In this document: one piece after another, positions 1,811-60,584 of the stretch | How positions within the stretch are numbered: position 1 is the stretch's first letter | Layout of the letters: each line of letters starts with the position of its first letter | Assembly (NCBI RefSeq): GCF_009914755.1 | Contig: NC_060933.1 | Length of the DNA: 64,000 nt | Strand: one strand, 5' to 3' | Origin: the human T2T-CHM13v2.0 reference genome, Homo sapiens | The notes under the pieces: generated by a model | Told to the model about the DNA's origin: nothing | The model's input: only the letters and a program-made list of their open reading frames with translations | Databases searched by the model: none | Program-made: the position numbers and the translations under genes

Positions 1811-2451
1811 GGGTCCTCATGGAGAACCTCTGCTAGGGCAGTGCAGAAGGAAAATGTGGGGAGGGAGCCCCCACACAGAATCCCTACTGGGGCACCACCT
1901 AGTGGAGCTGTGAGAAGAGGGCCACGGTCTTCCAGACCCCAGAAGTGTAGATCCACTGACAGCTTGCACTGTGTGCATGGAAAAGCTGCAGACACTTAAC
2001 ACCAGCCCATGAAGGCAGCCAGGAGGGAGACTGTACCCTGCAGAGCCAGAGGGGTGGAACTGCCCAAGACCATGGGTATCCACCTCTTGCCTCAGCGTGA
2101 CCTAGATGTGAGACATGGAGTTAAAGGAGCTTTAGATTTGACTGCCCTTCTGGATTTCAGAATTGCATGGGGCTTGTAGCCTCTTTGTTTTGGCCAATTT
2201 CTCCCATTTGCAATGGCTGCGTTTACCCAATCCCTGTACCCCTATAACCCCATTGTATCTAGGAAGTAACTAACTTGATTTTGATTTTACAGGGTCATAG
2301 GTGGAAGGGACTTGCCTTGTCTCAGATGAAACTTTGGACTGTGGACTTTTGAGTTAATGCTAAAAAGAGTTGACATTTTGGGGGACTGTTGGGAAGGCAT
2401 GACTGGTTTTGAAACATGCAGATATGAGATTTGGGAGGGGCTGGAGTGAAA
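1811..2451 (+). mobile_element. THE1A internal region, 3' part only
   Basis: Starts abruptly at gggtcctcatggagaacctctgctagggcagtg; ends in the purine tract gggaggggctggagtgaaa just before the LTR. Confidence 0.92.
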
Positions 2452-2810
2452 TGATATGGTTTGGCTCTGTGTCCCCATCCAAATCTCATCTTCTAGCTCC
2501 CATAATTTCTGTATGTAGTGGGAGGGACCTGATGGGAGAAGACTGAATCATGGGGGCAGGTCTTTCCCATGCTGTTCTCATAATAGTGAATGGGTCTCAC
2601 AAGATCTAGTGGTGTTAAAAACAGGATTTTCTCTGCACAAGCTCTTTTTTTGCCTGCTGCCACCCACATAAGATGTGTCTTGCTCCTTTTTACCATGATT
2701 GTGAGTCCTCCCCAGCCATGTGGAACTGTATGTCCAATAAACCTTTTTCTTTTGTAAGTTGTCCAGTCGTGGGTATGTCTTTATCAGCAGTGTTAAAATG
2801 GACTAATACA
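2452..2810 (+). mobile_element. THE1A 3' LTR (MaLR)
   Basis: tgatatggtttggctctgtgtcccc...ggactaataca; TG..CA termini; aataaa; followed by ATCAC. Confidence 0.95.
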
Positions 2811-4261
2811 ATCACTCTATCAAATGAGATAATATTTATTCCTTTACCACTGACAACTCTCTCTCGGCTCTTCTATTCAATCATGTTACTGATAGACGCT
2901 TTGCTTTTTGTTTTTGTTGTTTAACCTGATTGTTATAGCTTATTTTATGAATTTCTGTTCTTCTTTTAATTTTACAACAATTTTACTATTTCTCCTTACA
3001 TGTTTATAAGTCATATGGAGACTCCTTCTCATCTACCCTGACCCCAGAATATTAAAACTTTTCAGAGTTTCAGGATTAATTCCATTATATGGACATGATT
3101 CCTTGAGATAGGAAAAACTGATTGGATTGTGACATTAGACTTATCAGAATCTAAGATCTTACAAAATATAAAGCTTTACTAGTAATTTCACGAACTCAGG
3201 TAATCATTAGGCATGGGCAAATCAGAGAATTATTTAGATCTCTTAATCTGATTCTTTAGATCCTTGGTTCTGTCATTAGATACTCCCTTGCCCAGGCAGA
3301 TAGATGAGACTTCTAGAGAGGTATGCAGACAATTTATTTACATGGAGATACCTGTCTCAATTATCAAATATCTTAATTTTTATGCAGATAGTTACATATG
3401 TGGTATATGTGACATTTTCCAGGGAGCCCCATAAATCCACAACCTTCTACTTTGTTAACCATAAGCAATTCTAAACGACCAAGTACATTCTGCTAAAAGC
3501 ATTTCTGTGATAGATAATCACTCTCCTGCCAGCAAAAAAACAAATTGTTTGTCAGGAGCTGTCATTAGTATGTTTATATAAGCAAAATGGGCTTCCTTCC
3601 TTCTGTGGATCCTGGCAGGGCATCTCAGTAATCAGAAAGAATCAAAGACCCTTTCCTTCCCAATCTGCTCTGGCCTTGGTCAACATCTTAGTGCCAAATA
3701 TTGCTGGTGTATTATCATTATTGGCTTACACCATTTTCTGCAGTGTTTCACTTAAGCCAACTAATACTCTGACCTTGATTTGAACCATCCAACAGAGAGT
3801 AGGAATTCCCTCCACAAAGCATGTTACTCATTAACATCTTCCTTTACAAGTCTCTTGATGTTCATTCACAAACTCAATTACCTTTTTCCTCCATCAACCT
3901 CAATTATTTGCATCATTTTCCATGGGCCTATGGGAGTATTTAATTGAATACATATTTTTTCTTCTCAAATCAAATTTTCTGAAAAAAATTTGTTTCTATG
4001 AACTGTATTTTAGGTATATTCCAGGTTGGTACAAACACTAATTTTCAGGGGTCATTATGTCAAAGAGCCCATCCACACCCCATGGCCTACATATGTCAAA
4101 GGATTGTTCTTTATTCATCCACTTTCTATGAATTCCACACACGGGAGATAAACTTCTTTTTCATCCATATTACCAGGGTTGTCAGGGAGCAACACTGAAG
4201 GTCACAGTGTTCAGTGAAACCTTGCCATAACTTAGACTAAACACGTTTTTCCCATAATTTT

Positions 4262-4423
4262 ACTTCTTCAAATTCTTTCTTTCTTTTTCTTTCTTTCTCT
4301 TTCTTTCTTTCTTTCTTTCTTTCTTTCTTTCTTTCTCTTTCTCTTTCTTTCTCTCTTTCTTTCTCCTTTTCTTTCTCTCTCTCTCTCTTTTTCTTTCTTT
4401 TTCTTTCTTTTTTTTTTTTTTTT
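4262..4423. repeat. Compound (TTTC)n/(TC)n/T microsatellite grown from an Alu tail
   Basis: Direct reading; abuts the 3' end of a minus-strand Alu. Confidence 0.95.
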
Positions 4424-57432: not shown

Positions 57433-59979
57433 AGAAAACATGGTTGAAAGTCAATATCCATGTGATAAATTGAGTTAGAAAGCCAATGAGAGCTTAGCTA
57501 ATATAAAGGTGATGGAATTCACTATCAAAACTTTTCAGAGACTTAGAAAAAATATGGAAAATTAGTGAAAATGTAAGAGAATGAGGCTCGAAATCAAGAT
57601 AATTAAACTGCAAACTTTAAGAAGGCAGGAAAGATATCCTTTACTTAGTTTGTCTTGTCCAACTAATGGTTAGTTGAATGCCATGCACATAACACATCCC
57701 TCTGAGTACTTATTGAATAAATGTAGAATGTCATTCTGGAATAAATTGAGGCAAGAAACTAGAGGGATAGCAGTGTGAAAAGTGAGATTAATTTATTTGG
57801 TATAGAGTCAGTAAATTTAAGTGGGCCATTTGAAACAACAAGCTTAAAAGAAAACCAAATAAGCATTTTCAATGCATAGAAATGCAACCATTTTTCTCCT
57901 TCTGTACTTTATCCATTCAAACATTGCTTGAAAAAAAATATAACTTTCAGTCTTGCTTTTTTATCTCCACCAAACTCAGATAATTTTGGTCGTTGATGAC
58001 CTTTCTAAGCTAATTCCTATTTTAGAATGCTATGGACGAATGAATCTCAAAACTTCTTTTAACCAATTTATTTTATTCCATTTCCTAAGGAATAGAAACT
58101 TTTTACCTCCAACCCAGGGGAGCTATGAAACAAACTCCCCATTTATTTCCAATCCAAACACATTTGATAAAACAGGCAGAGGAATTTTTTATCAGATCTG
58201 TATTTTAAATTTTCATGACTGTTGTCCAAGAGTTTCCATTCTTGCTCATAAATATGTAGAGGCTTAAAATTCTTTTCTGAAAAATAAACTGCTACTTTAA
58301 ATGATTTTAACTCATTTTTATAATACTTTTTTTATTCTCTGATGATCTCTTGCTGTTTTTCTTTCTCTAGAAATGTTCTAAGAATAAATTAGCTGATATA
58401 CTAAGAAAGGTTCACAAAATGAGTCCTTCACCTATACAGCACCTCTTCTAAATAACAGAGAGATTACAAATCCAATGTATTTAAACTCTGAGTTGTCTAT
58501 ATGTGTAGTGTTATAAAATGTAGCTGTCAGTTTTAACAGCTTTTCCCCCTGAGATTTCAGTGGCTAGCTAATGATCTTTTTTAAGAATTAGGACATTTTC
58601 TAGATAGCGAAATGGCAGGAAAACATATCAAATACATATTTTTCCATTATAGTATTCTGAGGACTGTAAAGTCTTACTCAATGTATATCACTTTTAATTT
58701 TTAGGATACATAGAAATATTTGCTAGTAGAAATAAATGGCAAGTGTTTACTTGAAGATGGTTTAGAAAGATGCTTTTCTCTTTTAATTTGAATTGCTACT
58801 GTAAATGTCATCACATGTATTTCAGTATTGTCTATGCCAACTTTGTACCTGAAAAACAGTATTATGAATTGGGCATTATATTCCATCTTCATAAATTAAA
58901 AAAGAAACATAATAACTAGCGAAGTGGAATGAGGAAGGTGTGGGGAGACACAGAAATTTTCAAAAGTAGTAACAAATTCAAGCATGTATTAGCTTAATAT
59001 ATCATAACTTAAATGATTTAAATTAGGTATATGTTTATACCAATAAGTTTTAAATTCTTAATTCTTACCTCATCAAGTACCAACAAAGAATGCCCTTCCA
59101 TATTAATACACTTTGGGAATTAAGATAAAGTATATGTAATTAAATCATCAAACTCCTTTTGTTGTTTAGCAGGTAGTTTGATATAATAAGAGAAATTGTG
59201 TTCTCATTATATATTTGTCACAATGAATGAATGTAAAACCTTAATCAGGCTATCTGACTTCTTTTAGTGACATTACCCTTTTTGCAACCAACACATCAAA
59301 TTAGTAATATTTATCCTACAAAAATAATGTGAAGATAAATGAGATAAGATATATAATAGTCACAAATACTTATTGAATAAAGCTGTTTTTATTTATATAT
59401 TTCTATGTACTTACTAGATATGTTCTTATTAAATATTTTATTATGGTATATGTCAAGTCTTTTACTTCTTTTTTTATACTTAGTGTATTATAGAACTCAC
59501 CATCCAATAAAATTGTAATACAATTTTCTTGATTTACTAATCCTAGGTGAAAAAAAAAATATATATATATATATATGTTGTTTTCTGTTTGAATTATGCT
59601 TAGTTGATGGCATTTTCAATAATCTCTCTGATTCTTCCTTTTCCTGTTTAAACTACTCTCATTCTCATTGTGGCCTAGAGTTCTTTTTCCCTAATATTGC
59701 CTTCAGAAGGCTAAGTTTCTAATATAATAACAATTTGAGTCTTTACCACTTCTCTCTAGAATCGTGATTTAGACTAGGTTATTAGAGTAAACAATATGAT
59801 TCCAAATTTTTTCCTTTTTTTACTGGGCTAGCATCCAAAAAGCATAAGAATTCTGGGGGGAAATGACATAATTAAGCTAGATTATTTTAATTTAAATTCA
59901 GAATTAAAAATGATTTTCAATAGCTTCTTTGTCTTAATTTAATAAGCTTTTGTTGAACATTGATTATATTTTGAATTCT

Positions 59980-60470
59980 ATTTTTTCTTTTGTTTTTAGT
60001 TGGCACATAATTATACGTATTTATGGGATACAGAGTGATATTTTGATACATGTATACAATATGAAATATTCTAATTAGAGTAATTAGCATACTATCACCT
60101 TGTACATTTGTCATTTCCTTGTGATGTGAATATTCAGAATTCTATCTGGTAGGTTTTTAAAAAAATTCACTAAATTATTGTTAACTTAATTCACCCTACA
60201 GTGCTACAGAACGCTAGAGCTATTCCTCCCTTCTAGCTACAACTTTGTTACAAAGTTAACTTTGCTTACCAACCTCTTTCCATCCTCTTCTTATTCCCAT
60301 CCTTTCCAGCCTCTGATAACTACAATTCTACTTGTTACTTTTATAAGCTCATTTTTAGCTCCCACATATAAGTGAGAACATGTGGTTTTTCTCTCTCTGT
60401 GCCTGTCTTATTTCACTTAACATAATGTCCTCCAGGCTCATCTACGTTGTAACTAATAACATGATTTCAA
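59980..60470 (-). mobile_element. L1MA 3' end
   Basis: tatttatgggatacagagtgatattttgatacatgtatacaat; tagctcccacatataagtgagaacatgtgg. Confidence 0.88.
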
Positions 60471-60584
60471 TTCACTACAAAACTTAAAAGGATACTCAAC
60501 AGTGCCAAACATTCTATTTTAGTTTCCCAATGCATTCACTCCCACAGCATTCATAACAATAACCTTCTACAAAGTTACCACATG

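What the first reader, a model, noticed from the sequence alone, without database searches (positions are those of the whole stretch)
1811..60584. ~58.8-kb fossil inversion revealed by one THE1A provirus split between the two ends of the window
Seen: the right piece (minus strand) is 5'LTR plus the 5' internal region and stops at ...gtttgccacatgggtg (60585). The left piece (plus strand) starts at gggtcctcatggagaacc (1811) and runs to the 3'LTR. Joined they read gccacatgggtg|gggtcctc, colinear with the recalled THE1-int consensus gctgcaggggtggggccctc with no gap or overlap. The internal parts total 903+641=1544 bp, about a full THE1 internal region. The 5 bp outside the 3'LTR are ATCAC (2811-2815), and outside the 5'LTR are GTGAT (61850-61854), i.e. 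ATCAC on the element strand: a matching MaLR-type 5-bp TSD. Both LTRs also share ggtgttaaaaa and ataatttc, where the recalled consensus has ggttttaaaaa and ataattcc. Inference: reverse-complementing 1811-60584 restores one intact provirus, so this segment inverted after THE1A insertion in anthropoid evolution. Whether it is fixed, lineage-specific, paralog-specific or polymorphic cannot be read from this sequence.
Basis: partly seen in the sequence, partly recalled or inferred. Interest (0 to 1): 0.9.

Follow-up and report, generated by a model that had tools for sequence, protein, structure and literature searches.

The report
Recent copy-specific inversion splitting a THE1 element
A 58.8-kb stretch of this chromosome 9 duplicated region was cut at two points and put back the other way round, splitting an old retrotransposon; seven sister copies in the same genome keep the element whole, so the flip is real, recent and an ordinary kind of rearrangement.

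Summary
Window 1811-2810 (+) is the 3' internal half plus 3' LTR of one THE1-type MaLR element. Window 60585-61849 (-) is its 5' LTR plus 5' internal half. Both outer flanks carry ATCAC. The same genome holds seven other copies of this duplicated block: chr9 x3, chr13, chr14, chr21 and chr4. In 7 of 7 the element is whole, and the two halves abut with no base lost or gained. In the same seven copies the other two ends (window 60584 and 1810) are neighbours. They share one TG, which the window carries at both junctions. The whole window is colinear with chr9:39.975-40.041 Mb apart from the flipped middle. So this is one balanced 58,774-bp inversion. There is no homology at the breakpoints, which fits end joining rather than recombination between repeats. 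The junctions occur once in the genome. The inversion is not ancient. It lies on the private branch of this copy, 0.30-0.38% from its nearest sister. That makes it copy-specific and probably under about 2 million years old. The THE1A subfamily label, and fixation or polymorphism in people, could not be tested.

The parts
1..1810 (-). Left outer flank of the inversion; uninverted ancestral orientation, minus relative to the 9p sister copy
   Evidence: window 1-684 and 668-1810 align on the minus strand to C9:40040561-40038428 at 99.6-99.7%.
1809..1810 (.). CA, one of the two copies of the dinucleotide (TG on the other strand) duplicated at the distal breakpoint
   Evidence: intact paralogs have a single TG (C9:40038428-40038429) that both window pieces overlap.
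1811..60584 (.). Inverted segment, 58,774 bp. It includes RPL7AP76 and CYP4F61P (hub table) and a private 633-bp deletion at about 18977-18981
   Evidence: aligns on the plus strand to C9:39978717-40038429 in three colinear blocks (99.4-99.6%), while both flanks align on the minus strand.
1811..2451 (+). 3' half of the THE1-type internal region (641 bp)
   Evidence: directly follows the 5' half in L002-L008; 83-84% identical to the internal region of unrelated copies L009 and L010.
2452..2810 (+). 3' LTR (359 bp, TG...CA)
   Evidence: 81.3% identical to the 5' LTR.
2811..2815 (+). Target-site duplication ATCAC, 3' side
60583..60584 (.). TG, second copy of the duplicated dinucleotide at the distal breakpoint
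60585..61487 (-). 5' half of the internal region (903 bp)
61488..61849 (-). 5' LTR (362 bp, TG...CA)
61850..61854 (-). Target-site duplication, GTGAT on plus = ATCAC on the element strand
60585..64000 (-). Right outer flank of the inversion (starts inside the element); uninverted orientation
   Evidence: aligns on the minus strand to C9:39978716-39975297 at 99.65%.

Best explanation
A single balanced 58,774-bp inversion (window 1811-60584) arose in this one copy of a chr9 pericentromeric segmental duplication. One break fell inside the internal region of a THE1-type MaLR element and was rejoined without loss or gain of a base. The other break fell 59.7 kb away in non-homologous sequence. It was probably a 2-nt staggered cut whose overhangs were filled in, which would leave TG at both new junctions. 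The ends were joined by non-homologous end joining. The event postdates the split of this copy from its sister at chr9:39.98 Mb, so it is recent (human lineage) and copy-specific. It is not an old primate rearrangement. Shown: the structure, the reciprocity of the breakpoints, the lack of homology, the uniqueness in this genome and the position on the paralog tree. Inferred: the repair pathway, the absolute age, and that it is germline rather than specific to the cell line.
For:: 8 copies at >=96% identity, out of 40 scored from 7048 candidates; in 7 of 7 non-window copies the order is flank, 5' LTR, 5' half, 3' half, 3' LTR, flank, with the halves abutting at N|N+1; in the same 7 copies window 59585-60584 and the reverse complement of 811-1810 are adjacent. 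In 4 copies (the chr9 39.98 and 41.79 Mb, chr13 and chr14 copies) the two matches overlap by 2 bp; in the chr9 47.99 Mb and chr21 copies they abut without overlap (both matches are trimmed by 1-3 bases there); in chr4 they overlap by 2 bp and about 100 extra bp lie 40 bp further on. In one search all 10 candidates were scored; the window is fully colinear with C9:39975297-40040561 as minus / plus / minus blocks that switch exactly at 1810|1811 and 60584|60585. Mismatches are 14 of 5247 in the flanks and 180 of 58849 inside, so this is one copy and not a mosaic; the junction sequences show no shared bases between the joined ends and a single ancestral TG that is present twice in the window; the only similarities between breakpoint neighbourhoods are Alu-like repeats more than 2.5 kb away and the element's own LTRs; the 80-mer across junction 1 occurs full-length once; the 14 other matches cover one half only (15 of 15 candidates scored); the same holds for junction 2 (40 of 238 candidates scored). 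(about 8.2 kb aligned in 8 copies): chr4 is the outgroup at 2.5%; the window groups with the chr9 39.98 and 41.79 Mb copies (34 shared derived sites) and is sister to 39.98 (10 shared derived sites against 1 with 41.79). Pairwise distance to 39.98 is 0.38%, with 11 window-private substitutions.
Against: Only one human genome could be examined. Fixation, polymorphism, or an origin in the CHM13 cell line cannot be told apart, and read-level support for the assembly was not seen. Dating rests on 8.2 kb (tree) and 64 kb (one pair). Gene conversion between paralogs could shrink these distances, and the conversion to years uses a recalled human-chimpanzee calibration. Sequence alone cannot separate end joining of two breaks from a replication-based template switch without microhomology. 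The 2-bp TG could also be an untemplated addition that happens to match. A 7-mer (CCACATG) lies next to both ancestral breakpoints in direct orientation, but 3.3% (direct) to 6.3% (either orientation) of 200,000 random position pairs do as well.
Confidence: 0.88

Rival explanations
1. Replication-based template switching (FoSTeS/MMBIR type) produced the inversion rather than two double-strand breaks joined by NHEJ.
For: The small 2-bp duplication at one breakpoint and a second private change inside the segment, a 633-bp deletion whose two flanks overlap by 5 bp in the alignment, could be read as one error-prone replicative event.
Against: There is no microhomology at either junction. There is no copy-number gain beyond 2 bp. 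The interior is colinear with the sister copy apart from three indels. The deletion lies 17 kb from the nearest breakpoint and need not be linked to the inversion.
Confidence: 0.08
2. The arrangement is not a germline feature of people: it is either an assembly artefact or a rearrangement that arose in the CHM13 cell line.
For: The region is a >99.6% identical multi-copy duplication, which is hard to assemble. Only this assembly was available. The junctions are unique in it.
Against: The junctions join non-homologous positions, which overlap-based mis-joining between paralogs would not create; this is inference. Divergence is the same inside and outside the segment. The hub table shows a RefSeq lncRNA model whose terminal exon (56984-62499) runs across junction 1, but it is only a predicted model and its support was not seen.
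Confidence: 0.05
3. The inversion is an ancient primate ('fossil') event dating from soon after THE1 insertion.
For: The element itself is old: its LTRs are only 81.3% identical.
Against: 7 of 7 sister copies, including chr4 at 2.5% divergence, keep the element and the distal site intact. The window is 0.30-0.38% from its nearest intact sister.
Confidence: 0.01
4. NAHR between inverted repeats, or two independent THE1 insertions that only look like halves of one element.
For: Inverted Alu-like repeats lie within the wider area. The two LTRs are only 81% alike.
Against: The breakpoints lie in non-homologous sequence, and the Alus are more than 2.5 kb away. The halves abut exactly in seven natural copies with the same flanks and the same ATCAC duplication.
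Confidence: 0.01

Closest known systems
Human inversions with simple, non-homologous breakpoints, e.g. HsInv0379 on chr19 (PMC4591017; passages read with 'find': abstract, breakpoint section, discussion)
   Same: The breakpoints fall inside transposable elements that are abruptly interrupted in the derived arrangement. There is no repeat homology or microhomology, NHEJ is inferred, and the ancestral state is read from the intact elements.
   Different: HsInv0379 is 415 kb, lies in unique sequence, is polymorphic with a measured frequency, and disrupts a gene. The present one is 58.8 kb, sits inside one copy of a multi-copy pericentromeric duplication, and carries a 2-bp duplication. Its population status is unknown, and the outgroups used here are paralogs rather than other species.
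NAHR-mediated inversions between inverted segmental duplications or retrotransposons (e.g. PMC2603318, search listing and abstract only)
   Same: Inversion in a repeat-rich human region, with retroelements at a breakpoint.
   Different: Those arise by recombination between homologous inverted copies, so the breakpoints lie within matching repeats. Here the two breakpoints share no homology, and the element is a passive victim rather than the substrate.
Chr9 pericentromeric and acrocentric duplication blocks (PMC12767296, passages read with 'find')
   Same: The 8-copy block studied here lies on chr9 around the centromere and on chr13, chr14 and chr21. This matches the described sharing between former and present acrocentric short arms and the chr9 pericentromere.
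   Different: That paper treats large-scale architecture. The passages read contain no mention of this 58.8-kb inversion or of a chr4 source locus ('chr4' and '4q28' had 0 occurrences).

Membership tests
THE1-type MaLR LTR retrotransposon (full-length LTR-internal-LTR copy) | Two LTRs of about 350-370 bp with TG...CA termini, in the same orientation | tested here: met
   359-bp and 362-bp LTRs, both TG...CA, 81.3% identical. They are co-oriented in the seven intact paralogs.
THE1-type MaLR LTR retrotransposon (full-length LTR-internal-LTR copy) | 5-bp target-site duplication | tested here: met
   ATCAC at 2811-2815 and on the element strand at 61854-61850.
THE1-type MaLR LTR retrotransposon (full-length LTR-internal-LTR copy) | Internal region of about 1.5 kb, colinear with other genomic copies | tested here: met
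   903 + 641 = 1544 bp. It is 80-84% identical to the non-paralogous internal regions listed genome-wide and colinear without a gap in L009 and L010.
Subfamily THE1A specifically | Best match of the LTRs to the THE1A consensus rather than THE1B-D or MST | not testable with these tools
No Dfam or RepeatMasker library is available here, and the consensus is only recalled.
Simple balanced inversion | Both junctions are reciprocal products of the same two ancestral sites, and the interior is colinear | tested here: met
   site A is restored exactly, site B is restored with one TG shared, and the interior aligns in three colinear blocks.
NAHR-mediated inversion | Inverted homologous repeats spanning both breakpoints | tested here: not met
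   no similarity at the breakpoints. The nearest shared repeats are Alu-like and more than 2.5 kb away.
NHEJ-type inversion | Blunt or near-blunt joins, 0-few bp microhomology, small duplications or insertions | tested here: met
   0 bp microhomology at both junctions and a 2-bp duplication at one site. This is compatible with NHEJ but is not proof of the pathway.
Polymorphic or human-fixed inversion | Presence or absence in other human haplotypes and in apes | not testable with these tools
   Only this assembly is held. No listing was found in two supplements searched by coordinate prefix.

The most novel reading that the evidence does not exclude
The inversion is a human-specific, possibly still polymorphic, marker of the 9q-side copy. 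It turns 58.8 kb of about 99.7%-identical sequence from inverted to direct orientation relative to its two 9p sisters at 39.98 and 41.79 Mb. That would locally change what recombination between the 9p and 9q duplication blocks can produce, and these blocks are the kind of substrate proposed for the common pericentric inv(9) variants. The two junctions would then be unique tags for typing chr9 pericentromeric haplotypes.
Probability: 0.12. Interest if true: 0.5.

Novelty: new member of a known kind. Interest (0 to 1): 0.3.

Why it matters
The finding is a clean, base-resolved inversion whose ancestral state can be read from paralogs within a single genome. Its two junctions are unique sequences inside a block that is otherwise more than 99.6% identical to its sisters. 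That makes them useful as copy-specific anchors for mapping, for PCR typing and for following the history of the chr9 pericentromeric duplications. By inference, the flipped block now lies in direct rather than inverted orientation relative to the 9p copies, which bears on how exchanges between these blocks could resolve. No gene of known function is affected, and the mechanism is a familiar one, so the general biological weight is modest.

Tried and rejected
1. An Rfam scan of the whole window found 0 families at gathering score.

2. I looked for homology between the breakpoint neighbourhoods. Only distant Alu-like repeats turned up, so NAHR was rejected.

3. I tested whether the CCACATG 7-mer beside both ancestral breakpoints, which forms a 7-bp stem with a 4-nt loop at junction 1, is meaningful. 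It is not significant: 3.3% (direct) to 6.3% (either orientation) of 200,000 random position pairs share a 7-mer within +-12 nt.

4. Literature:
- Five searches found no paper naming this inversion. 'LOC105379263' occurs in 0 papers.
- Coordinate-prefix searches in the xlsx supplement of PMC10320979 and in two supplement files of PMC13721702 gave no entry at chr9:78.12-78.18 Mb.
- The PDF supplements of PMC10320979 could not be read and might bear on this.

6. A poly(A) signal for the predicted lncRNA end at 56984 was sought. None is obvious and only an A-run is present, so the transcript angle was dropped.

7. The subfamily assignment (THE1A) was not attempted because no repeat library is available.
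Full report
**What is in the sequence.**

- On the plus strand, window 1811-2451 is 641 bp of MaLR internal sequence. 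It is followed by a 359-bp LTR (2452-2810, TG...CA) and then ATCAC.
- On the minus strand, ATCAC (61854-61850) precedes a 362-bp LTR (61849-61488, TG...CA). Then come 903 bp of internal sequence, stopping at 60585.
- The LTRs are 81.3% identical.

**Test against natural copies.**

- The window's own genome can be searched; the window is C9:78120001-78184000.
- The 5' internal half has seven further matches at 96-100% identity: C9 at 39.98, 41.79 and 48.00 Mb, C13 at 12.58, C21 at 9.59, C14 at 6.82 and C4 at 135.16 Mb. After these come many unrelated THE1-type copies at 80-84%. Of 7048 candidates, 40 were scored.
- In 7 of 7 of these paralogs the order is 5' flank, 5' LTR, 5' half, 3' half, 3' LTR, 3' flank. 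The 5' half ends at locus position N and the 3' half begins at N+1.
- Two unrelated full-length copies (L009, L010) are also colinear across the join.
- The two window pieces are therefore halves of one insertion, cut between two adjacent bases.
- I did not flip or rejoin the window pieces. The intact natural copies answer the question.

**The other breakpoint.**

- Window 59585-60584 and the reverse complement of window 811-1810 lie next to each other in the same seven paralogs. One search scored all 10 candidates.
- In four copies the two matches overlap by 2 bp, for example C9:40037430-40038429 and 40038428-40039427. In the chr9 47.99 Mb and chr21 copies they abut without overlap, and both matches are trimmed by 1-3 bases at the site.
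- chr4 also shows a 2-bp overlap and has about 100 extra bp 40 bp from the site.
- In the two closest intact copies the site reads ...ACCACA-TG-TCTTATG.... The window carries TG at 60583-60584 and its complement at 1809-1810.
- Junction 1 (minus strand) reads ...CATGGGTG|CATGTGGTAAC... and junction 2 reads ...CATAAGACA|GGGTCCTC.... The joined ends share no bases.

**Whole-window comparison.** The table compares the window with C9:39975001-40042000.

| Window | Sister copy | Strand |
|---|---|---|
| 1-1810 | 40040561-40038428 | minus |
| 1811-60584 | 39978717-40038429 | plus |
| 60585-64000 | 39978716-39975297 | minus |

- There are 194 mismatches in 64,096 aligned columns (0.30%).
- The rate is alike in the flanks (14 of 5247) and inside the segment (180 of 58849).
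- This is one copy with its middle turned round, not a mosaic of paralogs.

**Mechanism.**

- BLAST between the four breakpoint neighbourhoods finds only Alu-like repeats more than 2.5 kb away and the element's own LTRs. Recombination between inverted repeats is therefore excluded.
- The pattern is zero microhomology, no loss at site A and a 2-bp duplication at site B.
- It fits two double-strand breaks, one blunt and one with a 2-nt 5' overhang that was filled in, joined by NHEJ. The pathway is inferred.
- A 7-mer (CCACATG) next to both ancestral sites is within chance.
- HsInv0379 is a described human analogue of this kind of inversion (PMC4591017, passages read).

**Uniqueness.**

- The 80-mers spanning each junction occur full-length only in the window.
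- All other matches cover one half only (15 of 15 candidates scored; 40 of 238 scored).

**Age.**

- About 8.2 kb was aligned in all eight copies, with the element halves kept as separate alignments.
- chr4 is 2.5% from all other copies.
- Three lineages lie 1.4-1.8% apart: (window, C9 39.98, C9 41.79), C9 47.99 alone, and (C13, C14, C21).
- The window is sister to C9 39.98, with 10 shared derived sites against 1 shared with C9 41.79. Their pairwise distance is 0.38%.
- The window has 11 private substitutions, and the inversion lies on that private branch.
- A recalled calibration puts human-chimpanzee divergence at about 1.2%. On that scale the branch spans roughly the last 1-2 million years. 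Gene conversion could distort the figure.
- The sister copy has gained an Alu (307 bp with a target-site duplication) and a 274-bp L1 fragment with a target-site duplication since the split. That fits appreciable but short time.

**Context.**

- The block is shared by the chr9 pericentromere and the chr13, chr14 and chr21 short-arm regions. This agrees with the described history of chr9 as a former acrocentric (PMC12767296, passages read).
- No paper or supplement that I could search names this inversion.

**Limits.**

- Only one genome was available, so fixation, polymorphism or a cell-line origin remain open.
- No read-level validation was possible.
- The subfamily name was not tested.

**Verdict.** The inversion is real and resolved to the base, but it is recent and copy-specific rather than a fossil. 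It is an ordinary NHEJ-type rearrangement in a duplication-rich region.

Noticed in passing
window 18977-18981: The window has a private 633-bp deletion inside the inverted segment. All 7 other copies hold the full 1031-bp query, while the window matches only positions 1-196 and 830-1031. The two window matches overlap by 5 bp, which suggests microhomology at the deletion junction.
   Followed up: partly
L040 (C9:40039571-40039877), corresponding to window about 668-684: The nearest sister copy carries a 307-bp Alu with a long T-run and a target-site duplication (ACATTTCATTTTC). The Alu is absent from the window and, judging by the aligned length, also from the chr9:41.79 Mb copy. It is therefore an insertion after the copies split.
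   Followed up: partly
L039 (C9:40030958-40031231), corresponding to window about 53382-53395: The sister copy has a 274-bp L1-like fragment with a T-run and flanking direct repeats that is absent from the window. Whether the other paralogs have it was not checked.
   Followed up: no
window 24191-24547: A solo MaLR-type LTR lies on the minus strand, 71-75% identical to the LTRs of the split element. It is an unrelated older insertion.
   Followed up: no
window 56984-62499: The terminal exon of the predicted lncRNA LOC105379263 (hub table) runs across junction 1, from the 5' LTR and 5' half of the element into inverted sequence. Its end at 56984 sits at a genomic A-run without an obvious poly(A) signal, so the model's end may reflect internal priming.
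   Followed up: partly
L030/L031 (C4:135220241-135220345): The chr4 copy has about 100 bp, 40 bp from the distal breakpoint site, that all the duplicated copies lack. This is either an insertion in chr4 or a deletion in the founder duplicate.
   Followed up: no
window 60300-60470: An L1 3'-end fragment lies on the minus strand about 115 bp inside the inverted segment from junction 1 (the matches at 72-77% for query positions 373-890). The L1 identification is from my own reading of the sequence. The breakpoint itself lies outside the part that matches other genomic copies.
   Followed up: no
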